Below the pieces are notes generated by a model. It did not search any database and was not told the origin of the DNA. It saw nothing but the letters and a program-made list of their open reading frames with translations. The position numbers and the translations under genes were made by a program. From contig OZ024741.1 in NCBI GenBank assembly GCA_964016885.1, positions 71,610,001 through 71,674,000 of the forward strand: a DNA stretch of 64,000 nucleotides, given 5' to 3'. This DNA is from Eledone cirrhosa (taxonomy: Eukaryota). Within the stretch, counting starts at the first letter, position 1; the number at the start of each line of letters is the position of its first letter. Positions 10,601 to 64,000 of this stretch are shown piece after piece.

Positions 10601-10745
10601 CTCACAGAGGCACCTCTCCATCTCACCTCTTGTACGCAGCACACATCCATATGCCTTCTCTCCAGCATCTCCGCTATTTCAGCAGATTTACCTGTGAGAG
10701 TGCCAACATTAAGTGTTGCAACTCAGAGATACGACGTCTTCATAT
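7688..10745 (-). mobile_element. Near-full-length RTE-clade non-LTR retrotransposon (single APE-RT ORF, now disrupted) with (ATG)n 3' tail
   Basis: APE motifs VATLNVGT, VQEVRW, SAYAP, GDFNGHVG and SQIDFLL. RT motifs QFGFVPGKSTTD, GVHQGSVLSP and YADN. C-terminal FRYLGD, MLHGSETW, RRLRWYGHVMR and RGRGRPRKTW. Tail CATCATCATCAT at 7688-7699. Confidence 0.95.
7701..10743 (-). pseudogene. Disrupted endonuclease/reverse-transcriptase ORF of the RTE element
   Basis: Broken into ORF pieces 10668-10402, 10341-10048, 9963-9475, 9272-8511 and 8327-7701. In-frame stops (e.g. SYL*VAT near 10725, GK*PC near 8512). Catalytic YADD reads YADN. Confidence 0.9.
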
Positions 10746-29386: not shown

Positions 29387-29407
29387 ATATATATGTATAT
29401 ATATATA

Positions 29408-30300: not shown

Positions 30301-30559
30301 TATATATATGGATATGTGACTGATAGATAGTATTAGCAACTGCAAAGGTCAATGGAAACATTGTTTCTTCGGTCTGATTTGATGAAAGGTCGATCGACTG
30401 TTAATATATATGAATTTTCATAAAATTATAGGATTCTCAGTGTGATAGGTATCTGTTTTTGACTACCACCTTAAGAAAAAGGGAACAAATAAACTGGAAA
30501 ATGGAAATTTTAGTCATTTCAGAGTTGTACTTGTTTGGCAATGACTTGATTTGACACTG

Positions 30560-39500: not shown

Positions 39501-42500
39501 CAGTTGTACTGTGTTGAGACTGAATCAATTATATTGTGGAAGAGTCATTTTAGTCACAGTTGTACTGTGTTGAGACTGAATTAATTATATTTTGGAAGAG
39601 TCATTTTAGTCACAGTTGTACTGTGTTGAGACTGAATTAATTATATTGTGGAAGAGTCATTTTAGTCACAGTTGTACTGTGTTGAGACTGAATTAATTAT
39701 ATTGTGGAAGAGTCATTTTAGTCACAGTTGTACTGTGTTGAGACTGAATCAATTATATTGTGGAAGAGTCATTTTAGTCACAGTTGTACTTTGTTGAGAC
39801 TGAATTAATTATATTTTGGAAGAGTCATTTTAGTCACAGTTGTACTGTGTTGAGACTGAATCAATTATATTGTGGAAGAGTCATTTTAGTCACAGTTGTA
39901 CTGTGTTGAGACTGAAGCGGTTATATTGTGGAAGAGTCATTTTAGTCACAGTTGTACTGTGTTGGGACTGAATCAATTATATTGTGGAAGAGTCATTTTA
40001 GTCACAGTTGTACTGTGTTGAGACTGAATTAATTATACTGTGGAAGAGTCATTTTAGTCACAGTTGTACTGTGTTGAGACTGAATCAATTATATTGTGGA
40101 AGAGTCATTTTAGTCACAGTTGTACTGTGTTGAGACTGAATCAATTATATTGTGGAAGAGTCATTTTAGTCACAGTTGTACTGTGTTGAGACTGAAGCGG
40201 TTATATTGTGGAAGAGTCATTTTAGTCACAGTTGGACTGTTGAGACTGAATCAATTATATTGTGGAAGAGTCATTTTAGTCACAGTTGTACTGTGTTGAG
40301 ACTGAATCAATTATATTGTGGAAGAGTCATTTTACTCACAGTTGTACTGTGTTGAGACTGAATCAATTATATTGTGGAAGAGTCATTTTAGTCACAGTTG
40401 TACTGTGTTGAGACTGAATCAATTATATTGTGGAAGAGTCATTTTAGTCACAGTTGTACTGTGTTGAGACTGAATCAATTATACTGTGGAAGGTCATTTT
40501 AGTCACAGTTGTACTGTGTTGAGACTGAATCAATTATATTGTGGAAGAGTCATTTTAGTCACAGTTGTACTGTGTTGAGACTGAATCAATTATACTGTGG
40601 AAGAGTCATTTTAGTCACAGTTGTACTGTGTTGAGACTGAATTAATTATACTGTGGAAGAGTCATTTTAGTCACAGTTGTACTGTGTTGAGACTGAATCA
40701 ATTATATTGTGGAAGAGTCATTTTAGTCACAGTTGTACTGTGTTGAGACTGAATCAATTATATTGCGGAAGAGTCATTTTAGTCACAGTTGTACTGTGTT
40801 GAGACTGAATCAATTATATTGTGGAAGAGTCATTTTAGTCAGAGTTGTACTGTGTTGAGACTGAATCAATTATATTGTGGAAGAGTCATTTTAGTTGTAC
40901 TGTGTTGAAACTGAATCAATTATATTGTGGAAGAGTCATTCTAGTGACAGTTGTACTGTGTTGAGACTGAATCAATTATATTGTGGAAGAGTCATTTTAG
41001 TCAGAGTTGTACTGTGTTGAGACTGAATCAATTATATTGTGGAAGAGTCATTTTAGTTGTACTGTGTTGAAACTGAATCAATTATATTGTGGAAGAGTCA
41101 TTTTAGCCACAGTTGTACTGTGTTGAGACTGAATCAATTATATTGTGGAAGAGTCATTTTAGACACAGTTGTACTGTGTTGAGACTGAATCAATTATATT
41201 GTGGAAGAGTCATTTTAGTCACAGTTGTACTGTGTTGAGACTGAATCAATTATATTGTGGAAGAGTCATTTTAGTCACAGTTGTACTGTGTTGAGACTGA
41301 ATCAATTATATTGTGGAAGAGTCATTTTAGTCACAGTTGTACTGTGTTGAGACTGAATCAATTATATTGTGGAAGAGTCATTTTAGTCACAGTTGTACTG
41401 TGTTGAGACTGAATTAATTATATTTTGGAAGAGTCATTTTAGTCACAGTTGTACTGTGTTGAGACTGAATTAATTATATTGTGGAAGAGTCATTTTAGTC
41501 ACAGTTGTACTGTGTTGAGACCGAATTAATTATATTGTGGAAGAGTCATTTTAGTCACAGTTGTACTGTGTTGAGACTGAATCAATTATATTGTGGAAGA
41601 GTCATTTTAGTCACAGTTGTACTTTGTTGAGACTGAATTAATTATATTTTGGAAGAGTCATTTTAGTCACAGTTGTACTGTGTTGAGACTGAATCAATTA
41701 TATTGTGGAAGAGTCATTTTAGTCACAGTTGTACTGTGTTGAGACTGAAGCGGTTATATTGTGGAAGAGTCATTTTAGTCACAGTTGTACTGTGTTGGGA
41801 CTGAATCAATTATATTGTGGAAGAGTCATTTTAGTCACAGTTGTACTGTGTTGAGACTGAATTAATTATACTGTGGAAGAGTCATTTTAGTCACAGTTGT
41901 ACTGTGTTGAGACTGAATCAATTATATTGTGGAAGAGTCATTTTAGTCACAGTTGTACTGTGTTGAGACTGAATCAATTATATTGTGGAAGAGTCATTTT
42001 AGTCACAGTTGTACTGTGTTGAGACTGAAGCGGTTATATTGTGGAAGAATCATTTTAGTCACAGTTGGACTGTTGAGACTGAATCAATTATATTGTGGAA
42101 GAGTCATTTTAGTCACAGTTGTACTGTGTTGAGACTGAATCAATTATATTGCGGAAGAGTCATTTTACTCACAGTTGTACTGTGTTGAGACTGAATCAAT
42201 TATATTGTGGAAGAGTCATTTTAGTCACAGTTGTACTGTGTTGAGACTGAATCAATTATATTGTGGAAGAGTCATTTTAGTCACAGTTGTACTGTGTTGA
42301 GACTGAATCAATTATACTGTGGAAGGTCATTTTAGTCACAGTTGTACTGTGTTGAGACTGAATCAATTATATTGTGGAAGAGTCATTTTAGTCACAGTTG
42401 TACTGTGTTGAGACTGAATCAATTATACTGTGGAAGAGTCATTTTAGTCACAGTTGTACTGTGTTGAGACTGAATTAATTATACTGTGGAAGAGTCATTT

Positions 42501-45500
42501 TAGTCACAGTTGTACTGTGTTGAGACTGAATCAATTATATTGTGGAAGAGTCATTTTAGTCACAGTTGTACTGTGTTGAGACTGAATCAATTATATTGTG
42601 GAAGAGTCATTTTAGTCACAGTTGTACTGTGTTGAGACTGAATCAATTATATTGTGGAAGAGTCATTTTAGTCACAGTTGTACTGTGTTGAGACTGAATC
42701 AATTATATTGTGGAAGAGTCATTTTAGTCACAGTTGTACTGTGTTGAGACTGAATCAATTATATTGTGGAAGAGTCATTTTAGTCACAGTTGTACTGTGT
42801 TGAGACTGAATCAATTATATTGTGGAAGAGTCATTTTAGTCACAGCTGTACTGTGTTGAGACTGAATAAATTATACTGTGGAAGAGTAATTTTAGTCACA
42901 GTTGTACTGTGTTGAGACTGAATTAATTATACTGTGGAAGAGTCATTTTAGTCACAGTTGTACTGTGTTGAGACTGAATCAATTATATTGTGGAAGAGTC
43001 ATTTTAGTCACAGTTGTACTGTGTTGAGACTGAATCAATTATATTGTGGAAGAGTCATTTTAGTCACAGTTGTACTGTGTTGAGACTGAATCAATTATAT
43101 TGTGGAAGAGTCATTTTAGTCACAGTTGTACTGTGTTGAGATTGAATCAATTATATTGTGGAAGAGTCATTTTAGTTGTACTGTGTTGAGACTGAATCAA
43201 TTATATTGTGGAAGAGTCATTTTAGTCACAGTTGTACTGTGTTGAGACTGAATCAATTATATTGTGGAAGAGTCATTTTAGTCACAGTTGTACTGTGTTG
43301 AGACTGAATCAATTATATTGTGGAAGAGTCATTTTAGTCACAGTTGTACTGTGTTGAGACTGAATCAATTATATTGCGGAAGAGTCATTTTAGTCACAGT
43401 TGTACTGTGTTGAGACTGAATTAACTATATTGTGGAAGAGTCATTTTAGTCACAGTTGTACTGTGTTGAGACTGAATCAATTATATTGTGGAAGAGTCAT
43501 TTTAGTCACAGTTGTACTGTGTTGAGACTGAATCAATTATATTGTGGAAGAGTCATTTTAGTCACAGTTGTACTGTGTTGAGACTGAATCAATTATATTG
43601 TGGAAGAGTCATTTTAGTCACAGTTGTACTGTGTTGAGACTGAATCAATTATATTGTGGAAGAGTCATTTTAGTCACAGTTGTACTGTGTTGAGACTGAA
43701 GTAATTATATTGTGGAAGAGTAATTTTACTCACAGTTGTACTGTGTTGAGACTGAATCAATTATATTGTGGAAGAGTCATTTTAGTCACAGTTGTACTGT
43801 GTTGAGACTGAATTAACTATATTGTGGAAGAGTAATTTTACTCACAGTTGTACTGTGTTGAGACTGAATCAATTATATTGTGGAAGAGTGATTTTAGTCA
43901 CAGTTGTACTGTGTTGAGACTGAATCAATTATATTGTGGAAGAGTCATTTTAGTCACAGTTGTACTGTGTTGAGACTGAATCAATTATATTGTGGAAGAG
44001 TCATTTTAGTCACAGTTGTACTGTGTTGAGACTGAATCAATTATATTGTGGAAGAGTCATTTTAGTCACAGTTGTACTGTGTTGAGACTGAATTAAATAT
44101 ATTGTGGAAGAGTAATTCTACTCACAGTTGTACTGTGTTGAGACTGAATCAATTATATTGTGGAAGAGTAATTTTAGTCACAGTTGTACTGTGTTGAGAC
44201 TGAATCAATTATATTGCGGAAGAGTCATTTTAGTCACAGTTGTACTGTGTTGAGACTGGAGCGGTTATAATGTGGAAGAGTCATTTTAGTCACAGTTGTA
44301 CTGTGTTGAGACTGAATCAATTATATTGTGGAAGAGTCATTTTAGTCACAGTTGTACTGTGTTGAGACTGAATCAATTATATTGTGGAAGAGTCATTTTA
44401 GTCAGAGTTGTACTGTGTTGAGACTGAATCAATTATATTGTGGAAGAGTCATTTTAGTTGTACTGTGTTGAAACTGAATCAATTATATTGTGGAAGAGTC
44501 ATTTTAGTCACAGTTGTACTGTGTTGAGACTGAATCAATTATATTGTGGAAGAGTCATTTTAGTCAGAGTTGTACTGTGTTGAGACTGAATCAATTATAT
44601 TGTGGAAGAGTCATTTTAGTTGTACTGTGTTGAAACTGAATCAATTATATTGTGGAAGAGTCATTTTAGCCACAGTTGTACTGTGTTGAGACTGAATCAA
44701 TTATATTGTGGAAGAGTCATTTTAGACACAGTTGTACTGTGTTGAGACTGAATCAATTATATTGTGGAAGAGTCATTTTAGTCACAGTTGTACTGTGTTG
44801 AGACTGAATCAATTATATTGTGGAAGAGTCATTTTAGTCACAGTTGTACTGTGTTGAGACTGAATCAATTATATTGTGGAAGAGTCATTTTAGTCACAGT
44901 TGTACTGTGTTGAGACTGAATCAATTATATTGTGGAAGAGTCATTTTAGTCACAGTTGTACTGTGTTGAGACTGAATTAATTATATTTTGGAAGAGTCAT
45001 TTTAGTCACAGTTGTACTGTGTTGAGACTGAATTAATTATATTGTGGAAGAGTCATTTTAGTCACAGTTGTACTGTGTTGAGACTGAATTAATTATATTG
45101 TGGAAGAGTCATTTTAGTCACAGTTGTACTGTGTTGAGACTGAATCAATTATATTGTGGAAGAGTCATTTTAGTCACAGTTGTACTTTGTTGAGACTGAA
45201 TTAATTATATTTTGGAAGAGTCATTTTAGTCACAGTTGTACTGTGTTGAGACTGAATCAATTATATTGTGGAAGAGTCATTTTAGTCACAGTTGTACTGT
45301 GTTGAGACTGAAGCGGTTATATTGTGGAAGAGTCATTTTAGTCACAGTTGTACTGTGTTGGGACTGAATCAATTATATTGTGGAAGAGTCATTTTAGTCA
45401 CAGTTGTACTGTGTTGAGATTGAATTAATTATACTGTGGAAGAGTCATTTTAGTCACAGTCGTACTGTGTTGAGACTGAATCAATTATATTGTGGAAGAG

Positions 45501-48500
45501 TCATTTTAGTCACAGTTTAACTGTGTTGAGACTGAATCAATTATATTGTGGAAGAGTCATTTTAGTCACAGTTGTACTGTGTTGAGACTGAAGCGGTTAT
45601 ATTGTGCAAGAGTCATTTTAGTCACAGTTGGACTGTTGAGACTGAATCAATTATATTGTGGAAGAGTCATTTTAGTCACAGTTGTACTGTGTTGAGACTG
45701 AATCAATTATATTGTGGAAGAGTCATTTTACTCACAGTTGTACTGTGTTGAGACTGAATCAATTATATTGTGGAAGAGTCATTTTAGTCACAGTTGTACT
45801 GTGTTGAGACTGAATCAATTATATTGTGGAAGAGTCATTTTAGTCACAGTTGTACTGTGTTGAGACTGAATCAATTATACTGTGGAAGAGTCATTTCAGT
45901 CACAGTTGTACTGTGTTGAGACTGAATCAATTATATTGTGGAAGAGTCATTTTAGTCACAGCTGTACTGTGTTGAGACTGAATCAATTATACTGTGGAAG
46001 AGTCATTTTAGTCACAGTTGTACTGTGTTGAGACTGAATTAATTATACTGTGGAAGAGTCATTTTAGTCACAGTTGTACTGTGTTGAGACTGAATCAATT
46101 ATATTGTGGAAGAGTCATTTTAGTCACAGTTGTACTGTGTTGAGACTGAATCAATTATATTGTGGAAGAGTCATTTTAGTCACAGTTGTACTGTGTTGAG
46201 ACTGAATCAATTATATTGTGGAAGAGTAATTTTAGTCACAGTTGTACTGTGTTGAGACTGAATCAATTATATTGTGGAAGAGTCATTTTAGTCACAGTTG
46301 TACTGTGTTGAGACTGAATCAATTATATTGTGGAAGAGTCATTTTAGTCACAGTTGTACTGTGTTGAGACTGAATCAATTATATTGTGGAAGAGTCATTT
46401 TAGTCACAGCTGTACTGTGTTGAGACTGAATCAATTATACTGTGGAAGAGTAATTTTAGTCACAGTTGTACTGTGTTGAGACTGAATCAATTATATTGTG
46501 GAAGAGTCATTTTAGTCACAGTTGTACTGTGTTGAGACTGAAGTAATTATATTGTGGAAGAGTAATTTTAGTCACAGTTGTACTGTGTTGAGACTGAAGT
46601 AATTATATTGTGGAAGAGTAATTTTACTCACAGTTGTACTGTGTTGAGACTGAATCAATTATATTGTGGAAGAGTCATTTTAGTCACAGTTGTACTGTGT
46701 TGAGACTGAATCAATTATATTGTGGAAGAGTCATTTTAGTCACAGTTGTACTGTGTTGAGACTGAATCAATTATATTGTGGAAGAGTCATTTTAGTCACA
46801 GTTGTACTGTGTTGAGACTGAAGTAATTATATTGTGGAAGAGTAATTTTACTCACAGTTGTACTGTGTTGAGACTGAATCAATTATATTGTGGAAGAGTC
46901 ATTTTAGTCACAGTTGTACTGTGTTGAGACTGAATTAACTATATTGTGGAAGAGTAATTTTACTCACAGTTGTACTGTGTTGAGACTGAATCAATTATAT
47001 TGTTGAAGAGTCATTTTAGTCACAGTTGTACTGTGTTGAGACTGAATCAATTATATTGTGGAAGAGTCATTTTAGTCACAGTTGTACTGTGTTGAGACTG
47101 AATCAATTATATTGTGGAAGAGTCATTTTAGTCACAGTTGTACTGTGTTGAGACTGAATCAATTATATTGTGGAAGAGTCATTTTAGTCACAGTTGTACT
47201 GTGTTGAGACTGAATTAAATATATTGTGGAAGAGTAATTCTACTCACAGTTGTACTGTGTTGAGACTGAATCAATTATATTGTGGAAGAGTAATTTTAGT
47301 CACAGTTGTACTGTGTTGAGACTGAATCAATTATATTGCGGAAGAGTCATTTTAGTCACAGTTGTACTGTGTTGAGACTGGAGCGGTTATAATGTGGAAG
47401 AGTCATTTTAGTCACAGTTGTACTGTGTTGAGACTGAATCAATTATATTGTGGAAGAGTCATTTTAGTCACAGTTGTACTGTGTTGAGACTGAATCAATT
47501 ATATTGTGGAAGAGTCATTTTAGTCAGAGTTGTACTGTGTTGAGACTGAATCAATTATATTGTGGAAGAGTCATTTTAGTTGTACTGTGTTGAAACTGAA
47601 TCAATTATATTGTGGAAGAGTCATTTTAGTCACAGTTGTACTGTGTTGAGACTGAATCAATTATATTGTGGAAGAGTCATTTTAGTCAGAGTTGTACTGT
47701 GTTGAGACTGAATCAATTATATTGTGGAAGAGTCATTTTAGTTGTACTGTGTTGAAACTGAATCAATTATATTGTGGAAGAGTCATTTTAGCCACAGTTG
47801 TACTGTGTTGAGACTGAATCAATTATATTGTGGAAGAGTCATTTTAGACACAGTTGTACTGTGTTGAGACTGAATCAATTATATTGTGGAAGAGTCATTT
47901 TAGTCACAGTTGTACTGTGTTGAGACTGAATCAATTATATTGTGGAAGAGTCATTTTAGTCACAGTTGTACTGTGTTGAGACTGAATCAATTATATTGTG
48001 GAAGAGTCATTTTAGTCACAGTTGTACTGTGTTGAGACTGAATCAATTATATTGTGGAAGAGTCATTTTAGTCACAGTTGTACTGTGTTGAGACTGAATT
48101 AATTATATTTTGGAAGAGTCATTTTAGTCACAGTTGTACTGTGTTGAGACTGAATTAATTATATTGTGGAAGAGTCATTTTAGTCACAGTTGTACTGTTT
48201 TGAGACTGAATTAATTATATTATGGAAGAGTCATTTTAGTCACAGTTGTACTGTGTTGAGACTGAATCAATTATATTGTGGAAGAGTCATTTTAGTCACA
48301 GTTGTACTTTGTTGAGACTGAATTAATTATATTTTGGAAGAGTCATTTTAGTCACAGTTGTACTGTGTTGAGACTGAATCAATTATATTGTGGAAGAGTC
48401 ATTTTAGTCACAGTTGTACTGTGTTGAGACTGAAGCGGTTATATTGTGGAAGAGTCATTTTAGTCACAGTTGTACTGTGTTGGGACTGAATCAATTATAT

Positions 48501-51500
48501 TGTGGAAGAGTCATTTTAGTCACAGTTGTACTGTGTTGAGACTGAATTAATTATACTGTGGAAGAGTCATTTTAGTCACAGTTGTACTGTGTTGAGACTG
48601 AATCAATTATATTGTGGAAGAGTCATTTTAGTCACAGTTGTACTGTGTTGAGACTGAATCAATTATATTGTGGAAGAGTCATTTTAGTCACAGTTGTACT
48701 GTGTTGAGACTGAAGCGGTTATATTGTGGAAGAGTCATTTTAGTCACAGTTGGACTGTTGAGACTGAATCAATTATATTGTGGAAGAGTCATTTTAGTCA
48801 CAGTTGTACTGTGTTGAGACTGAATCAATTATATTGTGGAAGAGTCATTTTACTCACAGTTGTACTGTGTTGAGACTGAATCAATTATATTGTGGAAGAG
48901 TCATTTTAGTCACAGTTGTACTGTGTTGAGACTGAATCAATTATATTGTGGAAGAGTCATTTTAGTCACAGTTGTACTGTGTTGAGACTGAATCAATTAT
49001 ACTGTGGAAGAGTCATTTTAGTCACAGTTGTACTGTGTTGAGACTGAATCAATTATATTGTGGAAGAGTCATTTTAGTCACAGTTGTACTGTGTTGAGAC
49101 TGAATCAATTATACTGTGGAAGAGTCATTTTAGTCAAAGTTGTACTGTGTTGAGACTGAATTAATTATACTGTGGAAGAGTAATTTTAGTCACAGTTGTA
49201 CTGTGTTGAGACTGAATCAATTATATTGTGGAAGAGTCATTTTAGTCACAGTTGTACTGTGTTGAGACTGAATCAATTATATTGTGGAAGAGTCATTTTA
49301 GTCACAGTTGTACTGTGTTGAGACTGAATCAATTATATTGTGGAAGAGTCATTTTAGTCACAGTTGTACTGTGTTGAGACTGAATCAATTATATTGTGGA
49401 AGAGTCATTTTAGTCACAGTTGTACTGTGTTGAGACTGAATCAATTATATTGTGGAAGAGTCATTTTAGTCACAGTTGTACTGTGTTGAGACTGAATCAA
49501 TTATATTGTGGAAGAGTCATTTTAGTCACAGCTGTACTGTGTTGAGACTGAATCAATTATACTGTGGAAGAGTAATTTTAGTCACAGTTGTACTGTGTTG
49601 AGACTGAATTAATTATACTGTGGAAGAGTCATTTTAGTCACAGTTGTACTGTGTTGAGACTGAATCAATTATATTGTGGAAGAGTCATTTTAGTCACAGT
49701 TGTACTGTGTTGAGACTGAATCAATTATATTGTGGAAGAGTCATTTTAGTCACAGTTGTACTGTGTTGAGACTGAATCAATTATATTGTGGAAGAGTCAT
49801 TTTAGTCACAGTTGTACTGTGTTGAGATTGAATCAATTATATTGTGGAAGAGTCATTTTAGTTGTACTGTGTTGAGACTGAATCAATTATATTGTGGAAG
49901 AGTCATTTTAGTCACAGTTGTACTGTGTTGAGACTGAATCAATTATATTGTGGAAGAGTCATTTTAGTCACAGTTGTACTGTGTTGAGACTGAATCAATT
50001 ATATTGTGGAAGAGTCATTTTAGTCACAGTTGTACTGTGTTGAGACTGAATCAATTATATTGCGGAAGAGTCATTTTAGTCACAGTTGTACTGTGTTGAG
50101 ACTGAATTAACTATATTGTGGAAGAGTCATTTTAGTCACAGTTGTACTGTGTTGAGACTGAATCAATTATATTGTGGAAGAGTCATTTTAGTCACAGTTG
50201 TACTGTGTTGAGACTGAATCAATTATATTGTGGAAGAGTCATTTTAGTCACAGTTGTACTGTGTTGAGACTGAATCAATTATATTGTGGAAGAGTCATTT
50301 TAGTCACAGTTGTACTGTGTTGAGACTGAATTAAATATATTGTGGAAGAGTAATTCTACTCACAGTTGTACTGTGTTGAGACTGAATCAATTATATTGTG
50401 GAAGAGTAATTTTAGTCACAGTTGTACTGTGTTGAGACTGAATCAATTATATTGAGGAAGAGTCATTTTAGTCACAGTTGTACTGTGTTGAGACTGGAGC
50501 GGTTATAATGTGGAAGAGTCATTTTAGTCACAGTTGTACTGTGTTGAGACTGAATCAATTATATTGTGGAAGAGTCATTTTAGTCACAGTTGTACTGTGT
50601 TGAGACTGAATCAATTATATTGTGGAAGAGTCATTTTAGTCACAGTTGTACTGTGTTGAGACTGAATCAATTATATTGTGGAAGAGTAATTTTAATCACA
50701 GTTGTACTGTGTTGAGACTGAATCAATTATATTGTGGAAGAGTCATTTTAGTCACAGTTGTACTGTGTTGAGACTGAATCAATTATATTGTGGAAGAGTC
50801 ATTTTAATCACAGTTGTACTGTGTTGAGACTAAATCAATTATATTGTGGAAGAGTCATTTTAGTCACAGTTGTACTGTGTTGAGACTGAATCAATTATAT
50901 TGTGGAAGAGTCATTTTAGTCACAGTTGTACTGTGTTGAGACTGAATTAACTATATTGTGGAAGAGTAATTTTACTCACAGTTGTACTGTGTTGAGACTG
51001 AATCAATTATATTGTGGAAGAGTCATTTTAGTCACAGTTGTACTGTGTTGAGACTGAATCAATTATATTGTGGAAGAGTCATTTTAGTCACAGTTGTACT
51101 GTGTTGAGACTAAATCAATGATATTGTGGAAGAGTCATTTTAGTCACAGTTGTACTGTGTTGAGACTGAATCAATTATATTGTGGAAGAGTAATTTTAAT
51201 CACAGTTGTACTGTGTTGAGACTGAATCAATTATACTGTGGAAGAGTCATTTTAGTCACAGTTGTACTGTGTTGAGCCTGAATCAATTATACTGTGGAAG
51301 AGTCATTTTAGTCACAGTTGTACTGTGTTGAGACTGAATCAATTATATTGTGGAAGAGTCATTTTAGTCAGAGTTGTACTGTGTTGAGACTGAATCAATT
51401 ATATTGTGGAAGAGTCATTTTAGTTGTACTGTGTTGAAACTGAATCAATTATATTGTGGAAGAGTCATTCTAGTGACAGTTGTACTGTGTTGAGACTGAA

Positions 51501-54500
51501 TCAATTATATTGTGGAAGAGTCATTTTAGTCAGAGTTGTACTGTGTTGAGACTGAATCAATTATATTGTGGAAGAGTCATTTTAGTTGTACTGTGTTGAA
51601 ACTGAATCAATTATATTGTGGAAGAGTCATTTTAGCCACAGTTGTACTGTGTTGAGACTGAATCAATTATATTGTGGAAGAGTCATTTTAGACACAGTTG
51701 TACTGTGTTGAGACTGAATCAATTATATTGTGGAAGAGTCATTTTAGTCACAGTTGTACTGTGTTGAGACTGAATCAATTATATTGTGGAAGAGTCATTT
51801 TAGTCACAGTTGTACTGTGTTGAGACTGAATCAATTATATTGTGGAAGAGTCATTTTAGTCACAGTTGTACTGTGTTGAGACTGAATCAATTATATTGTG
51901 GAAGAGTCATTTTAGTCACAGTTGTACTGTGTTGAGACTGAATTAATTATATTTTGGAAGAGTCATTTTAGTCACAGTTGTACTGTGTTGAGACTGAATT
52001 AATTATATTGTGGAAGAGTCATTTTAGTCACAGTTGTACTGTGTTGAGACTGAATTAATTATATTGTGGAAGAGTCATTTTAGTCACAGTTGTACTGTGT
52101 TGAGACTGAATCAATTATATTGTGGAAGAGTCATTTTAGTCACAGTTGTACTTTGTTGAGACTGAATTAATTATATTTTGGAAGAGTCATTTTAGTCACA
52201 GTTGTACTGTGTTGAGACTGAATCAATTATATTGTGGAAGAGTCATTTTAGTCACAGTTGTACTGTGTTGAGACTGAAGCGGTTATATTGTGGAAGAGTC
52301 ATTTTAGTCACAGTTGTACTGTGTTGGGACTGAATCAATTATATTGTGGAAGAGTCATTTTAGTCACAGTTGTACTGTGTTGAGACTGAATTAATTATAC
52401 TGTGGAAGAGTCATTTTAGTCACAGTTGTACTGTGTTGAGACTGAATCAATTATATTGTGGAAGAGTCATTTTAGTCACAGTTGTACTGTGTTGAGACTG
52501 AATCAATTATATTGTGGAAGAGTCATTTTAGTCACAGTTGTACTGTGTTGAGACTGAAGCGGTTATATTGTGGAAGAATCATTTTAGTCACAGTTGGACT
52601 GTTGAGACTGAATCAATTATATTGTGGAAGAGTCATTTTAGTCACAGTTGTACTGTGTTGAGACTGAATCAATTATATTGCGGAAGAGTCATTTTACTCA
52701 CAGTTGTACTGTGTTGAGACTGAATCAATTATATTGTGGAAGAGTCATTTTAGTCACAGTTGTACTGTGTTGAGACTGAATCAATTATATTGTGGAAGAG
52801 TCATTTTAGTCACAGTTGTACTGTGTTGAGACTGAATCAATTATACTGTGGAAGGTCATTTTAGTCACAGTTGTACTGTGTTGAGACTGAATCAATTATA
52901 TTGTGGAAGAGTCATTTTAGTCACAGTTGTACTGTGTTGAGACTGAATCAATTATACTGTGGAAGAGTCATTTTAGTCACAGTTGTACTGTGTTGAGACT
53001 GAATTAATTATACTGTGGAAGAGTCATTTTAGTCACAGTTGTACTGTGTTGAGACTGAATCAATTATATTGTGGAAGAGTCATTTTAGTCACAGTTGTAC
53101 TGTGTTGAGACTGAATCAATTATATTGTGGAAGAGTCATTTTAGTCACAGTTGTACTGTGTTGAGACTGAATCAATTATATTGTGGAAGAGTCATTTTAG
53201 TCACAGTTGTACTGTGTTGAGACTGAATCAATTATATTGTGGAAGAGTCATTTTAGTCACAGTTGTACTGTGTTGAGACTGAATCAATTATATTGTGGAA
53301 GAGTCATTTTAGTCACAGTTGTACTGTGTTGAGACTGAATCAATTATATTGTGGAAGAGTCATTTTAGTCACAGCTGTACTGTGTTGAGACTGAATAAAT
53401 TATACTGTGGAAGAGTAATTTTAGTCACAGTTGTACTGTGTTGAGACTGAATTAATTATACTGTGGAAGAGTCATTTTAGTCACAGTTGTACTGTGTTGA
53501 GACTGAATCAATTATATTGTGGAAGAGTCATTTTAGTCACAGTTGTACTGTGTTGAGACTGAATCAATTATATTGTGGAAGAGTCATTTTAGTCACAGTT
53601 GTACTGTGTTGAGACTGAATCAATTATATTGTGGAAGAGTCATTTTAGTCACAGTTGTACTGTGTTGAGATTGAATCAATTATATTGTGGAAGAGTCATT
53701 TTAGTTGTACTGTGTTGAGACTGAATCAATTATATTGTGGAAGAGTCATTTTAGTCACAGTTGTACTGTGTTGAGACTGAATCAATTATATTGTGGAAGA
53801 GTCATTTTAGTCACAGTTGTACTGTGTTGAGACTGAATCAATTATATTGTGGAAGAGTCATTTTAGTCACAGTTGTACTGTGTTGAGACTGAATCAATTA
53901 TATTGCGGAAGAGTCATTTTAGTCACAGTTGTACTGTGTTGAGACTGAATTAACTATATTGTGGAAGAGTCATTTTAGTCACAGTTGTACTGTGTTGAGA
54001 CTGAATCAATTATATTGTGGAAGAGTCATTTTAGTCACAGTTGTACTGTGTTGAGACTGAATCAATTATATTGTGGAAGAGTCATTTTAGTCACAGTTGT
54101 ACTGTGTTGAGACTGAATCAATTATATTGTGGAAGAGTCATTTTAGTCACAGTTGTACTGTGTTGAGACTGAATCAATTATATTGTGGAAGAGTCATTTT
54201 AGTCACAGTTGTACTGTGTTGAGACTGAAGTAATTATATTGTGGAAGAGTAATTTTACTCACAGTTGTACTGTGTTGAGACTGAATCAATTATATTGTGG
54301 AAGAGTCATTTTAGTCACAGTTGTACTGTGTTGAGACTGAATTAACTATATTGTGGAAGAGTAATTTTACTCACAGTTGTACTGTGTTGAGACTGAATCA
54401 ATTATATTGTGGAAGAGTGATTTTAGTCACAGTTGTACTGTGTTGAGACTGAATCAATTATATTGTGGAAGAGTCATTTTAGTCACAGTTGTACTGTGTT

Positions 54501-57500
54501 GAGACTGAATCAATTATATTGTGGAAGAGTCATTTTAGTCACAGTTGTACTGTGTTGAGACTGAATCAATTATATTGTGGAAGAGTCATTTTAGTCACAG
54601 TTGTACTGTGTTGAGACTGAATTAAATATATTGTGGAAGAGTAATTCTACTCACAGTTGTACTGTGTTGAGACTGAATCAATTATATTGTGGAAGAGTAA
54701 TTTTAGTCACAGTTGTACTGTGTTGAGACTGAATCAATTATATTGCGGAAGAGTCATTTTAGTCACAGTTGTACTGTGTTGAGACTGGAGCGGTTATAAT
54801 GTGGAAGAGTCATTTTAGTCACAGTTGTACTGTGTTGAGACTGAATCAATTATATTGTGGAAGAGTCATTTTAGTCACAGTTGTACTGTGTTGAGACTGA
54901 ATCAATTATATTGTGGAAGAGTCATTTTAGTCAGAGTTGTACTGTGTTGAGACTGAATCAATTATATTGTGGAAGAGTCATTTTAGTTGTACTGTGTTGA
55001 AACTGAATCAATTATATTGTGGAAGAGTCATTTTAGTCACAGTTGTACTGTGTTGAGACTGAATCAATTATATTGTGGAAGAGTCATTTTAGTCAGAGTT
55101 GTACTGTGTTGAGACTGAATCAATTATATTGTGGAAGAGTCATTTTAGTTGTACTGTGTTGAAACTGAATCAATTATATTGTGGAAGAGTCATTTTAGCC
55201 ACAGTTGTACTGTGTTGAGACTGAATCAATTATATTGTGGAAGAGTCATTTTAGACACAGTTGTACTGTGTTGAGACTGAATCAATTATATTGTGGAAGA
55301 GTCATTTTAGTCACAGTTGTACTGTGTTGAGACTGAATCAATTATATTGTGGAAGAGTCATTTTAGTCACAGTTGTACTGTGTTGAGACTGAATCAATTA
55401 TATTGTGGAAGAGTCATTTTAGTCACAGTTGTACTGTGTTGAGACTGAATCAATTATATTGTGGAAGAGTCATTTTAGTCACAGTTGTACTGTGTTGAGA
55501 CTGAATTAATTATATTTTGGAAGAGTCATTTTAGTCACAGTTGTACTGTGTTGAGACTGAATTAATTATATTGTGGAAGAGTCATTTTAGTCACAGTTGT
55601 ACTGTGTTGAGACTGAATTAATTATATTGTGGAAGAGTCATTTTAGTCACAGTTGTACTGTGTTGAGACTGAATCAATTATATTGTGGAAGAGTCATTTT
55701 AGTCACAGTTGTACTTTGTTGAGACTGAATTAATTATATTTTGGAAGAGTCATTTTAGTCACAGTTGTACTGTGTTGAGACTGAATCAATTATATTGTGG
55801 AAGAGTCATTTTAGTCACAGTTGTACTGTGTTGAGACTGAAGCGGTTATATTGTGGAAGAGTCATTTTAGTCACAGTTGTACTGTGTTGGGACTGAATCA
55901 ATTATATTGTGGAAGAGTCATTTTAGTCACAGTTGTACTGTGTTGAGATTGAATTAATTATACTGTGGAAGAGTCATTTTAGTCACAGTCGTACTGTGTT
56001 GAGACTGAATCAATTATATTGTGGAAGAGTCATTTTAGTCACAGTTTAACTGTGTTGAGACTGAATCAATTATATTGTGGAAGAGTCATTTTAGTCACAG
56101 TTGTACTGTGTTGAGACTGAAGCGGTTATATTGTGCAAGAGTCATTTTAGTCACAGTTGGACTGTTGAGACTGAATCAATTATATTGTGGAAGAGTCATT
56201 TTAGTCACAGTTGTACTGTGTTGAGACTGAATCAATTATATTGTGGAAGAGTCATTTTACTCACAGTTGTACTGTGTTGAGACTGAATCAATTATATTGT
56301 GGAAGAGTCATTTTAGTCACAGTTGTACTGTGTTGAGACTGAATCAATTATATTGTGGAAGAGTCATTTTAGTCACAGTTGTACTGTGTTGAGACTGAAT
56401 CAATTATACTGTGGAAGAGTCATTTCAGTCACAGTTGTACTGTGTTGAGACTGAATCAATTATATTGTGGAAGAGTCATTTTAGTCACAGCTGTACTGTG
56501 TTGAGACTGAATCAATTATACTGTGGAAGAGTCATTTTAGTCACAGTTGTACTGTGTTGAGACTGAATTAATTATACTGTGGAAGAGTCATTTTAGTCAC
56601 AGTTGTACTGTGTTGAGACTGAATCAATTATATTGTGGAAGAGTCATTTTAGTCACAGTTGTACTGTGTTGAGACTGAATCAATTATATTGTGGAAGAGT
56701 CATTTTAGTCACAGTTGTACTGTGTTGAGACTGAATCAATTATATTGTGGAAGAGTAATTTTAGTCACAGTTGTACTGTGTTGAGACTGAATCAATTATA
56801 TTGTGGAAGAGTCATTTTAGTCACAGTTGTACTGTGTTGAGACTGAATCAATTATATTGTGGAAGAGTCATTTTAGTCACAGTTGTACTGTGTTGAGACT
56901 GAATCAATTATATTGTGGAAGAGTCATTTTAGTCACAGCTGTACTGTGTTGAGACTGAATCAATTATACTGTGGAAGAGTAATTTTAGTCACAGTTGTAC
57001 TGTGTTGAGACTGAATCAATTATATTGTGGAAGAGTCATTTTAGTCACAGTTGTACTGTGTTGAGACTGAAGTAATTATATTGTGGAAGAGTAATTTTAG
57101 TCACAGTTGTACTGTGTTGAGACTGAAGTAATTATATTGTGGAAGAGTAATTTTACTCACAGTTGTACTGTGTTGAGACTGAATCAATTATATTGTGGAA
57201 GAGTCATTTTAGTCACAGTTGTACTGTGTTGAGACTGAATCAATTATATTGTGGAAGAGTCATTTTAGTCACAGTTGTACTGTGTTGAGACTGAATCAAT
57301 TATATTGTGGAAGAGTCATTTTAGTCACAGTTGTACTGTGTTGAGACTGAAGTAATTATATTGTGGAAGAGTAATTTTACTCACAGTTGTACTGTGTTGA
57401 GACTGAATCAATTATATTGTGGAAGAGTCATTTTAGTCACAGTTGTACTGTGTTGAGACTGAATTAACTATATTGTGGAAGAGTAATTTTACTCACAGTT

Positions 57501-60500
57501 GTACTGTGTTGAGACTGAATCAATTATATTGTTGAAGAGTCATTTTAGTCACAGTTGTACTGTGTTGAGACTGAATCAATTATATTGTGGAAGAGTCATT
57601 TTAGTCACAGTTGTACTGTGTTGAGACTGAATCAATTATATTGTGGAAGAGTCATTTTAGTCACAGTTGTACTGTGTTGAGACTGAATCAATTATATTGT
57701 GGAAGAGTCATTTTAGTCACAGTTGTACTGTGTTGAGACTGAATTAAATATATTGTGGAAGAGTAATTCTACTCACAGTTGTACTGTGTTGAGACTGAAT
57801 CAATTATATTGTGGAAGAGTAATTTTAGTCACAGTTGTACTGTGTTGAGACTGAATCAATTATATTGCGGAAGAGTCATTTTAGTCACAGTTGTACTGTG
57901 TTGAGACTGGAGCGGTTATAATGTGGAAGAGTCATTTTAGTCACAGTTGTACTGTGTTGAGACTGAATCAATTATATTGTGGAAGAGTCATTTTAGTCAC
58001 AGTTGTACTGTGTTGAGACTGAATCAATTATATTGTGGAAGAGTCATTTTAGTCACAGTTGTACTGTGTTGAGACTGAATCAATTATATTGTGGAAGAGT
58101 CATTTTAGTTGTACTGTGTTGAAACTGAATCAATTATATTGTGGAAGAGTCATTTTAGTCACAGTTGTACTGTGTTGAGACTGAATCAATTATATTGTGG
58201 AAGAGTCATTTTAGTCAGAGTTGTACTGTGTTGAGACTGAATCAATTATATTGTGGAAGAGTCATTTTAGTTGTACTGTGTTGAAACTGAATCAATTATA
58301 TTGTGGAAGAGTCATTTTAGCCACAGTTGTACTGTGTTGAGACTGAATCAATTATATTGTGGAAGAGTCATTTTAGACACAGTTGTACTGTGTTGAGACT
58401 GAATCAATTATATTGTGGAAGAGTCATTTTAGTCACAGTTGTACTGTGTTGAGACTGAATCAATTATATTGTGGAAGAGTCATTTTAGTCACAGTTGTAC
58501 TGTGTTGAGACTGAATCAATTATATTGTGGAAGAGTCATTTTAGTCACAGTTGTACTGTGTTGAGACTGAATCAATTATATTGTGGAAGAGTCATTTTAG
58601 TCACAGTTGTACTGTGTTGAGACTGAATTAATTATATTTTGGAAGAGTCATTTTAGTCACAGTTGTACTGTGTTGAGACTGAATTAATTATATTGTGGAA
58701 GAGTCATTTTAGTCACAGTTGTACTGTTTTGAGACTGAATTAATTATATTATGGAAGAGTCATTTTAGTCACAGTTGTACTGTGTTGAGACTGAATCAAT
58801 TATATTGTGGAAGAGTCATTTTAGTCACAGTTGTACTTTGTTGAGACTGAATTAATTATATTTTGGAAGAGTCATTTTAGTCACAGTTGTACTGTGTTGA
58901 GACTGAATCAATTATATTGTGGAAGAGTCATTTTAGTCACAGTTGTACTGTGTTGAGACTGAAGCGGTTATATTGTGGAAGAGTCATTTTAGTCACAGTT
59001 GTACTGTGTTGGGACTGAATCAATTATATTGTGGAAGAGTCATTTTAGTCACAGTTGTACTGTGTTGAGACTGAATTAATTATACTGTGGAAGAGTCATT
59101 TTAGTCACAGTTGTACTGTGTTGAGACTGAATCAATTATATTGTGGAAGAGTCATTTTAGTCACAGTTGTACTGTGTTGAGACTGAATCAATTATATTGT
59201 GGAAGAGTCATTTTAGTCACAGTCGTACTGTGTTGAGACTGAAGCGGTTATATTGTGGAAGAGTCATTTTAGTCACAGTTGGACTGTTGAGACTGAATCA
59301 ATTATATTGTGGAAGAGTCATTTTAGTCACAGTTGTACTGTGTTGAGACTGAATCAATTATATTGTGGAAGAGTCATTTTACTCACAGTTGTACTGTGTT
59401 GAGACTGAATCAATTATATTGTGGAAGAGTCATTTTAGTCACAGTTGTACTGTGTTGAGACTGAATCAATTATATTGTGGAAGAGTCATTTTAGTCACAG
59501 TTGTACTGTGTTGAGACTGAATCAATTATACTGTGGAAGAGTCATTTTAGTCACAGTTGTACTGTGTTGAGACTGAATCAATTATATTGTGGAAGAGTCA
59601 TTTTAGTCACAGTTGTACTGTGTTGAGACTGAATCAATTATACTGTGGAAGAGTCATTTTAGTCAAAGTTGTACTGTGTTGAGACTGAATTAATTATACT
59701 GTGGAAGAGTAATTTTAGTCACAGTTGTACTGTGTTGAGACTGAATCAATTATATTGTGGAAGAGTCATTTTAGTCACAGTTGTACTGTGTTGAGACTGA
59801 ATCAATTATATTGTGGAAGAGTCATTTTAGTCACAGTTGTACTGTGTTGAGACTGAATCAATTATATTGTGGAAGAGTCATTTTAGTCACAGTTGTACTG
59901 TGTTGAGACTGAATCAATTATATTGTGGAAGAGTCATTTTAGTCACAGTTGTACTGTGTTGAGACTGAATCAATTATATTGTGGAAGAGTCATTTTAGTC
60001 ACAGTTGTACTGTGTTGAGACTGAATCAATTATATTGTGGAAGAGTCATTTTAGTCACAGCTGTACTGTGTTGAGACTGAATCAATTATACTGTGGAAGA
60101 GTAATTTTAGTCACAGTTGTACTGTGTTGAGACTGAATTAATTATACTGTGGAAGAGTCATTTTAGTCACAGTTGTACTGTGTTGAGACTGAATCAATTA
60201 TATTGTGGAAGAGTCATTTTAGTCACAGTTGTACTGTGTTGAGACTGAATCAATTATATTGTGGAAGAGTCATTTTAGTCACAGTTGTACTGTGTTGAGA
60301 CTGAATCAATTATATTGTGGAAGAGTCATTTTAGTCACAGTTGTACTGTGTTGAGATTGAATCAATTATATTGTGGAAGAGTCATTTTAGTTGTACTGTG
60401 TTGAGACTGAATCAATTATATTGTGGAAGAGTCATTTTAGTCACAGTTGTACTGTGTTGAGACTGAATCAATTATATTGTGGAAGAGTCATTTTAGTCAC

Positions 60501-63500
60501 AGTTGTACTGTGTTGAGACTGAATCAATTATATTGTGGAAGAGTCATTTTAGTCACAGTTGTACTGTGTTGAGACTGAATCAATTATATTGCGGAAGAGT
60601 CATTTTAGTCACAGTTGTACTGTGTTGAGACTGAATTAACTATATTGTGGAAGAGTCATTTTAGTCACAGTTGTACTGTGTTGAGACTGAATCAATTATA
60701 TTGTGGAAGAGTCATTTTAGTCACAGTTGTACTGTGTTGAGACTGAATCAATTATATTGTGGAAGAGTCATTTTAGTCACAGTTGTACTGTGTTGAGACT
60801 GAATCAATTATATTGTGGAAGAGTCATTTTAGTCACAGTTGTACTGTGTTGAGACTGAATTAAATATATTGTGGAAGAGTAATTCTACTCACAGTTGTAC
60901 TGTGTTGAGACTGAATCAATTATATTGTGGAAGAGTAATTTTAGTCACAGTTGTACTGTGTTGAGACTGAATCAATTATATTGAGGAAGAGTCATTTTAG
61001 TCACAGTTGTACTGTGTTGAGACTGGAGCGGTTATAATGTGGAAGAGTCATTTTAGTCACAGTTGTACTGTGTTGAGACTGAATCAATTATATTGTGGAA
61101 GAGTCATTTTAGTCACAGTTGTACTGTGTTGAGACTGAATCAATTATATTGTGGAAGAGTCATTTTAGTCACAGTTGTACTGTGTTGAGACTGAATCAAT
61201 TATATTGTGGAAGAGTAATTTTAATCACAGTTGTACTGTGTTGAGACTGAATCAATTATATTGTGGAAGAGTCATTTTAGTCACAGTTGTACTGTGTTGA
61301 GACTGAATCAATTATATTGTGGAAGAGTCATTTTAATCACAGTTGTACTGTGTTTAGACTAAATCAATTATATTGTGGAAGAGTCATTTTAGTCACAGTT
61401 GTACTGTGTTGAGACTGAATCAATTATATTGTGGAAGAGTCATTTTAGTCACAGTTGTACTGTGTTGAGACTGAATTAACTATATTGTGGAAGAGTAATT
61501 TTACTCACAGTTGTACTGTGTTGAGACTGAATCAATTATATTGTGGAAGAGTCATTTTAGTCACAGTTGTACTGTGTTGAGACTGAATCAATTATATTGT
61601 GGAAGAGTCATTTTAGTCACAGTTGTACTGTGTTGAGACTAAATCAATGATATTGTGGAAGAGTCATTTTAGTCACAGTTGTACTGTGTTGAGACTGAAT
61701 CAATTATATTGTGGAAGAGTAATTTTAATCACAGTTGTACTGTGTTGAGACTGAATCAATTATACTGTGGAAGAGTCATTTTAGTCACAGTTGTACTGTG
61801 TTGAGCCTGAATCAATTATACTGTGGAAGAGTCATTTTAGTCACAGTTGTACTGTGTTGAGACTGAATCAATTATATTGTGGAAGAGTCATTTTAGTCAC
61901 AGTTGTACTGTGTTGAGACTGAATCAATTATATTGTGGAAGAGTCATTTTAGTCACAGTTGTACTGTGTTGAGACTGAATCAATTATATTGTGGAAGAGT
62001 CATTTTAGTCACAGTTGTACTGTGTTGAGACTGAATCAATTATACTGTGGAAGAGTCATTTTAGTCACAGTTGTACTGTGTTGAGACTGAATCAATTATA
62101 CTGTGGAAGAGTCATTTTAGTCACAGTTGTACTGTGTTGAGACTGAATCAATTATATTGTGGAAGAGTCATTTTAGTCACAGTTGTACTGTGTTGAGACT
62201 GAATCAATTATATTGTGGAAGAGTCATTGTAGTCACAGTTGCACTGTGTTGAGACTGAATCAATTATACTGTGGAAGAGTCATTTTAGTCACAGTTGTAC
62301 TGTGTTGAGACTGAATCAATTATACTGTGGAAGAGTCATTTTAGTCACAGTTGTACTGTGTTGAGACTGAATCAATTATATTGTGGAAGAGTCATTCTAG
62401 TCACAGTTGTACTGTGTTGAGACTGAATCAATTATATTGTGGAAGAGTCATTTTAGTCACAGTTGTACTGTGTTGAGACTGAATCAATTATATTGTGGAA
62501 GAGTCATTTTAATCACAGTTGTACTGTGTTGAGACTGAATCAATTATACTGTGGAAGAGTCATTTTAGTCACAGTTGTACTGTGTTGAGCCTGAATCAAT
62601 TATACTGTGGAAGAGTCATTTTAGTCACAGTTGTACTGTGTTGAGACTGAATCAATTATATTGTGGAAGAGTCATTTTAGTCACAGTTGTACTGTGTTAA
62701 ACTGAATCAATTATATTGTGGAAGAGTCATTTTAGTCACAGTTGTACTGTGTTGAGACTGAATCAATTATATTGTGGAAGAGTCATTTTAGTCACAGTTG
62801 TACTGTGTTGAGACTGAATCAATTATATTGTGGAAGAGTCATTTTAGTCACAGTTGTACTGTGTTGAGACTGAATCAATTATATTGTGGAAGAGTCATTT
62901 TAGTCACAGTTGTACTGTGTTGAGACTGAATCAATTATATTGTGGAAGAGTCATTTTAGTCACAGTTGTACTGTGTTGAGACTGAATCAATTATATTGTG
63001 GAAGAGTCATTTTAGTCACAGCTGTACTGTGTTGAGACTGAATCAATTATACTGTGGAAGAGTCATTTTAGTCACAGTTGTACTGTGTTGAGACTGAATC
63101 AATTATACTGTGGAAGAGTCATTTTAGTCACAGTTGTACTGTGTTGAGACTGAATCAATTATATTGTGGAAGAGTCATTTTAGTCACAGTTGTACAGTGT
63201 TGAGACTGAATCAATTATATTGTGGAAGAGTCATTTTAGTCACAGCTGTACTGTGTTGAGACTGAATCAATTATACTGTGGAAGAGTAATTTTAGTCACA
63301 GTTGTACTGTGTTGAGACTGAATTAATTATACTGTGGAAGAGTCATTTTAGTCACAGTTGTACTGTGTTGAGACTGAATCAATTATATTGTGGAAGAGTC
63401 ATTTTAGTCACAGTTGTACTGTGTTGAGACTGAATCAATTATATTGTGGAAGAGTCATTTTAGTCACAGTTGTACTGTGTTGAGACTGAATCAATTATAT

Positions 63501-64000
63501 TGTGGAAGAGTCATTTTAGTCACAGTCGTACTGTGTTGAGATTGAATCAATTATATTGTGGAAGAGTCATTTTAGTTGTACTGTGTTGAGACTGAATCAA
63601 TTATATTGTGGAAGAGTCATTTTAGTCACAGTTGTACTGTGTTGAGACTGAATCAATTATATTGTGGAAGAGTCATTTTAGTCACAGTTGTACTGTGTTG
63701 AGACTGAATCAATTATATTGTGGAAGAGTCATTTTAGTCACAGTTGTACTGTGTTGAGACTGAATCAATTATATTGCGGAAGAGTCATTTTAGTCACAGT
63801 TGTACTGTGTTGAGACTGAATTAACTATATTGTGGAAGAGTCATTTTAGTCACAGTTGTACTGTGTTGAGACTGAATCAATTATATTGTGGAAGAGTCAT
63901 TTTAGTCACAGTTGTACTGTGTTGAGACTGAATCAATTATATTGTGGAAGAGTCATTTTAGTCACAGTTGTACTGTGTTGAGACTGAATCAATTATATTG
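30560..64000. repeat. Satellite DNA array, 56-bp monomer AGTCACAGTTGTACTGTGTTGAGACTGAATCAATTATATTGTGGAAGAGTCATTTT, about 600 head-to-tail copies, continuing past the window end
   Basis: Period 56 (e.g. TATTGTGGAA at 30681 and 30737). 50-, 54- and 55-bp deletion variants. 19/56 GC. No insertions or orientation switches seen. Confidence 0.99.
40770..61895. repeat. Two tandem copies of a 10,529-bp (189-monomer) higher-order repeat within the satellite
   Basis: Eight rare markers recur at exactly +10,529 (40941/51470, 42041/52570, 42861/53390, 45511/56040, 47001/57530, 48191/58720, 50451/60980, 51271/61800). Confidence 0.92.

What the first reader, a model, noticed from the sequence alone, without database searches (positions are those of the whole stretch)
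40770..61895. Hidden 10,529-bp (189-monomer) super-repeat inside the 56-bp satellite
Rare monomer variants recur at exactly the same offset: CTAGTGACAG 40941/51470, GGAAGAAT 42041/52570, GAATAAA 42861/53390, CAGTTTAA 45511/56040, TGTTGAAG 47001/57530, CTGTTTTG 48191/58720, TTGAGGAA 50451/60980 and GAGCCTG 51271/61800. The length reconciles arithmetically: 189 x 56 = 10,584, minus eight 6-bp, three 2-bp and one 1-bp deletions (55 bp), gives 10,529. I saw only four differences between the copies (about 41522, 47527, 59224 and 61355), implying a very recent large unequal exchange or duplication. This is higher-order-repeat (HOR) organisation like that of primate alpha-satellite, here in an apparently invertebrate satellite I do not recognise.
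Basis: seen in the sequence. Interest (0 to 1): 0.75.

Follow-up and report, generated by a model that had tools for sequence, protein, structure and literature searches.

The report
One-off block duplication in mollusc satellite
A 10,529-base block of a 56-base repeat is present twice, head to tail and almost identical, inside a 50,000-base array found at one place in a mollusc genome; it is likely one recent copying event of a kind common in this genome's repeats, not a centromere-type higher-order repeat, and the array likely grew inside an old jumping-gene remnant.

Summary
The alpha-satellite reading is too strong. There are only two copies. The array is bounded, 898 monomers and 50 kb, and all 630 genome-wide hits of a 56-mer-specific probe lie in it. 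The unit is three older, unequal blocks of 64+56+69 monomers, and its junction joins two different block types within 75 bp of perfect homology. So it is the latest layer of serial in-register duplications. A sister 84-bp array has similar 2-7 kb head-to-tail duplications. The 56-mer is an 84-bp unit of a dispersed, partly palindromic element minus 28 bp, and the array sits in that element's left arm, as with Tetris/TIR-220. An assembly artefact is disfavoured (no gap; the copies differ about six-fold less than the flank alleles) but not excluded: reads could not span the junction, and short-read depth suggests a shorter mean array. The genome is molluscan, probably cephalopod. The scan has noted similar cases before, in this genome and others.

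The parts
40767..51295 (+). Copy 1 of the 10,529-bp (189-monomer) block; carries one private substitution at 41522
51296..61899 (+). Copy 2 plus the 75-bp terminal overlap; carries three derived changes (58056 back to consensus, 59224, 61355)
51296..51370 (+). Novel junction: 75 bp of pure consensus in which the exchange must lie; joins a downstream-type block end to an upstream-type block start
   Evidence: the monomer string across it occurs once in 898 monomers, while the ancestral continuation occurs 7 times
41091..44653 (+). Sub-block 1 of the unit (64 monomers, 3,563 bp; phase set by a landmark monomer pair)
44654..47775 (+). Sub-block 2 (56 monomers, 3,122 bp)
   Evidence: sub-blocks differ by 0.7-1.2% plus monomer indels
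47776..51619 (+). Sub-block 3 (69 monomers, 3,844 bp; runs across the junction)
30581..64000 (+). 56-bp tandem array; continues to 16,573 bases past the window end (898 monomers, about 50 kb, no N gap inside)
38150..40116 (+). Smaller exact head-to-tail duplication in the same array (17 monomers, 946 bp, 0 differences)
30517..30595 (+). Worn full-length (84-bp type) unit: outer end of the left arm of a foldback-like dispersed element; its inverted partner lies about 18.0-18.1 kb past the window end
   Evidence: (70% over 90 columns, E 1.7e-4)

Best explanation
The 10,529-bp block is present twice head to tail, and it is likely the product of one recent homology-directed copying event (unequal sister or homologue exchange, or template slippage in break repair) in which the array paired 189 monomers out of step. 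Shown: the two copies, the four differences, the whole-monomer register, the 75-bp junction window, older nested blocks of 45-70 monomers, and a single-locus array. Inferred: pairing used plain monomer similarity (about 97%), not block register, because the junction joins unlike blocks; repeated events of this kind built the 50-kb array; two of the four differences are likely gene conversions from neighbouring monomers and two are new point mutations. Also inferred: the array began when a 28-bp deletion between two ACT triplets shortened an 84-bp unit in the arm of an old foldback-like element. No function is needed; the block is most likely neutral and may be polymorphic.
For: Two copies only, with no third in the rest of the array or elsewhere in the assembly (630 of 630 probe hits lie in this array). 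10 of 11 variants seen exactly twice are at lag 189, and only 2 of 15 singleton variants fall in the 42% of monomers that are duplicated (P = 0.018), as expected of a young copy. Eight complete tandem duplications of 3-189 monomers are found in this array. In a 200-kb piece of the sister 84-bp array, 9 of the 40 longest matches listed are complete head-to-tail duplications of 2.0-7.2 kb with 0-0.38% differences. Against an artefact: no N gap in the array; the longest exact repeat is 6,004 bp; all four differences are substitutions, whereas HiFi assembly errors were mostly small indels in Arabidopsis; both copies carry derived changes. One run's flank contigs differ from the window at 8 sites in about 3.4 kb, which predicts about 25 differences if the copies were two haplotypes; 4 are seen (P about 1e-7, or 0.004 at half that rate). 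Periodicity-preserving tandem duplications and non-allelic conversion were measured directly in Arabidopsis (10.1101/2025.06.02.657473).
Against: No read or contig spans the junction. Array-specific word depth in two runs of one sample is about 383 times the flank depth (362 and 410), against 565 expected if both chromosomes carried the assembled array and 446 if one unit is removed. This fits a shorter second allele or library bias, but it also fits an over-expanded assembly. The 8 flank differences come from one of three runs of that sample (0 in the other two), 7 of them from one contig, and the sample is not known to be the assembled individual. The block is about twice the largest insertion seen in the Arabidopsis lines (31 units of 178 bp). 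Sequence alone cannot separate crossing-over from break-induced replication.
Confidence: 0.72

Rival explanations
1. Assembly artefact: two haplotypes, or two under-collapsed read sets, were joined in tandem through a short overlap of consensus monomers.
For: Exactly two copies. The junction window is 75 bp of pure consensus. Depth ratio 383 lies closer to 446 (one unit removed) than to 565. A 200-N gap lies about 20 kb past the array end.
Against: No gap between the copies, which is one listed mark of false duplications (PMC9516828 passages). The copies differ about six-fold less than the flank alleles. Differences are substitutions, with derived states in both copies. The same pattern at many sizes is found in this and a sister array; that control comes from the same assembly, so it is not independent of assembler behaviour.
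Confidence: 0.15
2. The duplication is real but arose by excision of a 10.5-kb circle from a sister chromatid and its reinsertion, or by a short rolling-circle round.
For: A circle formed by exchange between consensus monomers would carry exactly this junction (inference). Rolling-circle reinsertion is discussed for satellites (PMC4079207 Discussion).
Against: The copy lies exactly next to its source and there are only two copies. The cited paper calls this route hypothetical.
Confidence: 0.08
3. The block is an incipient functional higher-order repeat, for example of a centromere, kept or amplified by selection.
For: The array is homogeneous (96.8%) with quasi-periodic blocks of 45-70 monomers, in a repeat-rich region where no host gene was found.
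Against: The array is only 50 kb and at a single locus on a 416-Mb scaffold. Block lengths are irregular and the junction is out of block register. There are two copies only. In maize, local HORs are unrelated to centromere activity (PMC13011684).
Confidence: 0.05

Closest known systems
Periodicity-preserving kilobase tandem duplications in Arabidopsis CEN178 arrays (10.1101/2025.06.02.657473; abstract and two Results sections read)
   Same: Whole-monomer, in-register, adjacent duplication; later point changes partly explained by conversion from neighbours.
   Different: Here 189 units (10.5 kb) against at most 31 units there; no sign that this array is centromeric; inferred from one assembly, not seen in pedigrees.
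Local HORs of maize CentC/knob arrays (PMC13011684; abstract, Background and Discussion read) and local-nested HORs (PMC10053651; passages read)
   Same: Low-copy, locally confined repeated monomer strings, nested at several sizes.
   Different: Maize local patterns average about 4 monomers in about 3 copies; this top layer is 189 monomers in 2 copies.
Primate alpha-satellite HOR arrays (PMC10053651 passage; the very high copy number is recalled)
   Same: An ordered string of monomers is repeated with much higher identity between units than between monomers.
   Different: Monomers here are 96.8% alike, the unit is not amplified beyond two copies, and the array is 50 kb at one locus.
Tetris foldback element and its TIR-220 satellite, Drosophila virilis (PMC4079207; abstract and Discussion part 1 of 2 read)
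   Same: Tandem array grown from a repeat inside one arm of a non-coding inverted-repeat element.
   Different: Here about 900 copies of a deleted 56-bp derivative, against up to 66 copies of TIR-220 in that assembly. The parent also yields arrays of period 33, 38, 40, 58, 63, 83 and 84 bp at other loci. No target-site duplication was found.
Cg_HINE Helentron-borne tandem repeats of the oyster (PMC7492417; abstract only)
   Same: Mollusc satellite-like arrays carried inside dispersed non-autonomous elements.
   Different: The parent here shows long inverted arms; Helentron hallmarks were not tested.

Membership tests
Alpha-satellite-type HOR array | Units far more alike than the monomers within them | tested here: met
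   0.038% between units against 3.2% between monomers
Alpha-satellite-type HOR array | Divergent monomer types (50-90% identity) in fixed order | tested here: not met
   Mean pairwise identity 96.8%; 392 of 898 monomers equal the consensus
Alpha-satellite-type HOR array | Unit repeated many times in tandem | tested here: not met
   Two copies in the whole array; probe found nowhere else in the assembly
Alpha-satellite-type HOR array | CENP-A/kinetochore association | not testable with these tools
   No chromatin data
Local in-register tandem duplication in satellite DNA | Adds whole monomers, adjacent to and nearly identical with the source | tested here: met
   189 whole monomers, head to tail, 4 differences
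Local in-register tandem duplication in satellite DNA | Present on real molecules | tested here: inconclusive
   Only short contigs and RAD reads were available; none spans the junction; depth ambiguous
Foldback-element-derived satellite (Tetris type) | Long inverted arms around a non-coding centre | tested here: met
   Both ends of the array match an inverted unit about 1.5 kb past its end (70-74%). Self-inverted score exceeds all 30 shuffles at the centre of this copy and at 6 of 13 other loci, clearly at 3.
Foldback-element-derived satellite (Tetris type) | Array monomer derives from a repeat inside the arm | tested here: met
   56-mer aligns to 3 of 3 tested 84-bp units with one 28-bp gap; worn full-length units bracket the array
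Foldback-element-derived satellite (Tetris type) | 8-10 bp target-site duplication | tested here: inconclusive
   Best direct repeat near the ends of this copy is 6 bp and AT-rich; ends are worn; other copies not tested
Foldback-element-derived satellite (Tetris type) | Autonomous transposase partner or empty-site evidence of mobility | not tested
   No search made
False duplication of assembly | Gap between the two copies | tested here: not met
   No N between 30.6 and 80.6 kb
False duplication of assembly | Half or very low read depth, discordant spanning reads | tested here: inconclusive
   No per-copy depth possible; array-wide ratio 383 against 565 or 446

The most novel reading that the evidence does not exclude
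One old foldback-like element of this probable octopod acts as a satellite nursery. At separate loci, short deletions or partial duplications of its 84-bp arm unit gave arrays with at least eight monomer lengths (33, 38, 40, 56, 58, 63, 83, 84 bp), which then grow by block duplications of up to 10.5 kb that ignore older block register. The family would be a set of natural replicates, with known ancestor and intact flanks, for how satellites and higher-order patterns are born.
Probability: 0.5. Interest if true: 0.4.

Novelty: new member of a known kind. Interest (0 to 1): 0.22.

Why it matters
The duplication itself is ordinary satellite turnover at the large end of the known size range. Its value is as a clean, fully bounded example: the ancestor unit, both flanks, the deletion that made the monomer and several layers of duplication can all be read at one locus, in an animal group for which my searches listed no satellite study. 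It does not bear on centromere identity unless CENP-A is found here.

Tried and rejected
Coding origin: 84 bp is 28 codons, so I checked for a zinc-finger or other coding repeat; all frames of the two 84-bp loci examined are broken by stops within the array. Rejected.
Host gene or intron context: 135 of 1,434 stop-to-stop frames of 40 aa or more (window 1-30,500 and about 103 kb past the array; the top 140 by composition, 5 dropped as simple repeat or overlapping a LINE frame) gave, above curated cut-offs, only LINE reverse transcriptase, endonuclease and PHD matches and one Pif1 helicase piece. Short exons could be missed, so an intronic position is not excluded.
Rfam on one parent-element locus: 3 weak matches far below family thresholds, none on the element.
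Read support for the junction: contigs built from 31-letter words cannot span 75 bp of consensus, and the 11-12 RAD reads laid per run fitted only in part. No verdict.
Run X1 (another species label, small share) was laid on the left flank and covered mainly repeats. Not used.
One literature search returned nothing. Supplements were not opened.
The flank denominator typed was 3,293 bp; the five listed pieces add to about 3,400 bp, which changes the expectation from 26 to 25.
No absolute age is given: no mutation rate for this animal is in hand, and conversion raises rates in satellites.
Full report
Observation. Self-comparison at lag 10,529 gives 0.999-1.000 identity in every kilobase from 41,001 to 51,000. 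The unit has 189 monomers: 177 of 56 bp, 8 of 50, 3 of 54 and 1 of 55. At monomer level 110 variant monomers match at lag 189, where 200 shuffles never exceed 20 at any lag.

The array. I fetched 200 kb past the window. The array ends 16,573 bases past the window end. It holds 898 monomers in 50 kb with no N gap; the nearest gap is about 20 kb further on. A 25-base probe specific to the 56-mer has 630 hits in the 3.0-Gb assembly, all in this array. It is a single-locus array on a 416-Mb scaffold, and the assembly holds no second haplotype of it. Monomers are 96.8% alike on average. The genome is molluscan: 39 matches to the haemocyanin beta-sandwich family. Among single-domain structures, the best scores are 1js8_A and 4yd9_C (141 and 139 bits) against 1lnl_A and 8tnv_A (101 and 93 bits). 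I recall the first two as octopus and squid and the others as snails, so a cephalopod is likely. Earlier scan notes on this genome also say octopod (unchecked).

Inside the unit. The 189-mer is three older blocks of 64, 56 and 69 monomers (3,563 + 3,122 + 3,844 = 10,529 bp) that differ by 0.7-1.2% plus whole-monomer indels. Landmark monomer pairs recur, mostly every 45-70 monomers, along most of the array, with one block type from 35 to 58 kb and another from 62 kb to the end. Other exact copies exist: 17 monomers (946 bp) head to tail with no difference, 2,560 exact bases at lag 3,073, and 1,882 at lag 3,465. No third copy of the 189-mer exists. The junction lies within 75 bp of pure consensus (51296-51370) and joins the end of a downstream-type block to the start of an upstream-type block. 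That monomer string occurs once, while the ancestral continuation occurs seven times. The exchange therefore kept monomer register but ignored block register, which is the opposite of how a fixed higher-order unit would be propagated (inference).

Youth. Ten of 11 variants seen exactly twice are at lag 189, and only 2 of 15 singletons fall in the duplicated 42% of monomers (P = 0.018). One difference is private to copy 1 and three are derived in copy 2. Two of the four alleles occur elsewhere in the array and could be conversions; two are unique.

Real or artefact. There is no gap between the copies, the longest exact repeat is 6,004 bp, and all four differences are substitutions. Three runs of one sample cover the left flank: the listed single-copy flank contigs of two runs match the window without a substitution, and those of the third differ at 8 sites in about 3.4 kb. 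Read as the second haplotype, that predicts about 25 differences between two haplotypes of the block, against 4 seen. Against this, no contig or read spans the junction, and array word depth is about 383 times flank depth, below both 565 (assembled array on both chromosomes) and 446 (one unit removed). A shorter second allele or library bias would explain it, but so would over-expansion. I put the artefact at about 0.15.

Control. In 200 kb of an 84-bp sister array on C14, 9 of the 40 longest matches listed are complete head-to-tail duplications of 2.0-7.2 kb, with 0 to 0.38% differences. Blocks of this kind are common in this assembly; the 10.5-kb one is the largest I saw.

Origin of the monomer. 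A DNA search found weaker relatives at 69-75% identity in other arrays. The 56-mer aligns to 84-bp units from three loci with one 28-bp gap. In the units that bracket the array, the missing segment lies between two ACT triplets (read from the sequence). A 21-base motif from that segment has 3,311 exact hits, as scattered single copies and as arrays. Among 20 loci that I picked from these lists, partly because they looked like arrays, periods of 33, 38, 40, 58, 63, 83 and 84 bp occur. Past the array come a full unit, a spacer split by about 1.2 kb of other DNA between 16-bp direct repeats, a palindromic centre, and an inverted unit matching both ends of the array at 70-74%. Six of 13 other loci score above all 30 shuffles for self-inversion, three of them clearly; seven do not. 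No convincing target-site duplication was found at this copy. The array thus appears to have grown in the left arm of an old foldback-like element; that the element was mobile is inferred from its dispersal.

Mechanism. Most likely a homology-directed event paired the array 189 monomers out of step and copied the block once, the latest of many such events. The products are shown; the pathway is inferred and cannot be fixed from sequence. No function is required. The flanks gave only LINE and helicase fragments in a partial Pfam screen, 135 of 1,434 frames.

Known parallels. Arabidopsis mutation-accumulation lines show the same whole-unit tandem duplications, up to 31 units, and non-allelic conversion (10.1101/2025.06.02.657473; abstract and two Results sections). 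Maize arrays are full of local, low-copy HORs unrelated to centromere activity (PMC13011684; abstract, Background, Discussion). Alpha-satellite HORs have monomers 50-90% alike (PMC10053651; passages), a test not met here. Tetris/TIR-220 is the precedent for a satellite grown inside a foldback arm (PMC4079207; abstract, Discussion part 1), and oyster Cg_HINE elements are a mollusc parallel (PMC7492417; abstract). Marks of false duplication are from PMC9516828 (passages). Two searches for cephalopod satellite work listed no paper on it by title; the library lacks most subscription papers, so this repeat family may or may not be described.

Verdict. The feature is real in the assembly and probably real in the animal: a new example of a known process. 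Interest 0.22. The more promising lead is the parent element that seeds arrays of many monomer lengths.

Noticed in passing
window 29399-30309: About 900-bp element with 36-bp inverted ends (92% alike) in TA-rich flanks and a 170-aa frame on the minus strand that I read from memory as a mariner-type transposase fragment (no Pfam match at E 0.01); very high copy in the runs of the window's species label; ends 210 bp before the satellite-bearing element.
   Followed up: partly
G000:C14 about 19.43-20.04 Mb (L003, L047-L066): Large 84-bp satellite of the same parent family, continuous over the 200 kb fetched, with many multi-kilobase tandem duplications.
   Followed up: partly
L038, L039, L040, L042, L043, L044: Arrays with 33, 38, 83, 40, 58 and 63 bp monomers, each cut from a different part of the same 84-bp unit; L039 also has a 32-bp array from the element's centre next to the 38-bp one.
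   Followed up: partly
L006, about 16,664-17,892 bases past the window end (G000:C2 about 71,690,664-71,691,892): About 1.2 kb of other DNA between 16-bp direct repeats splits the element's left spacer; either an insertion with a target-site duplication or a duplication of the spacer.
   Followed up: no
window 7701-10722 minus strand; also L008:562-2910 and L010:3830-6973: LINE copies with endonuclease, reverse transcriptase and PHD-like matches; the window copy is broken, while L010 holds a 1,048-aa open frame.
   Followed up: no
G000:C2 about 71.70-71.74 Mb (L007-L011): Cluster of kilobase-long (TA)n-rich tracts around a 200-N assembly gap.
   Followed up: no
window 30581-64000 and beyond: The commonest indels remove short direct repeats: a 6-bp loss between two AGT triplets (40 monomers) and a 2-bp loss in a TG run (7 monomers). 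Several common substitutions match the 84-bp parent's state, by retention or by conversion from other loci.
   Followed up: no
G000:C1 173.7-173.9 Mb and C26 21.9-22.0 Mb: Several haemocyanin gene copies, in tandem on C1 and as an inverted pair on C26.
   Followed up: no
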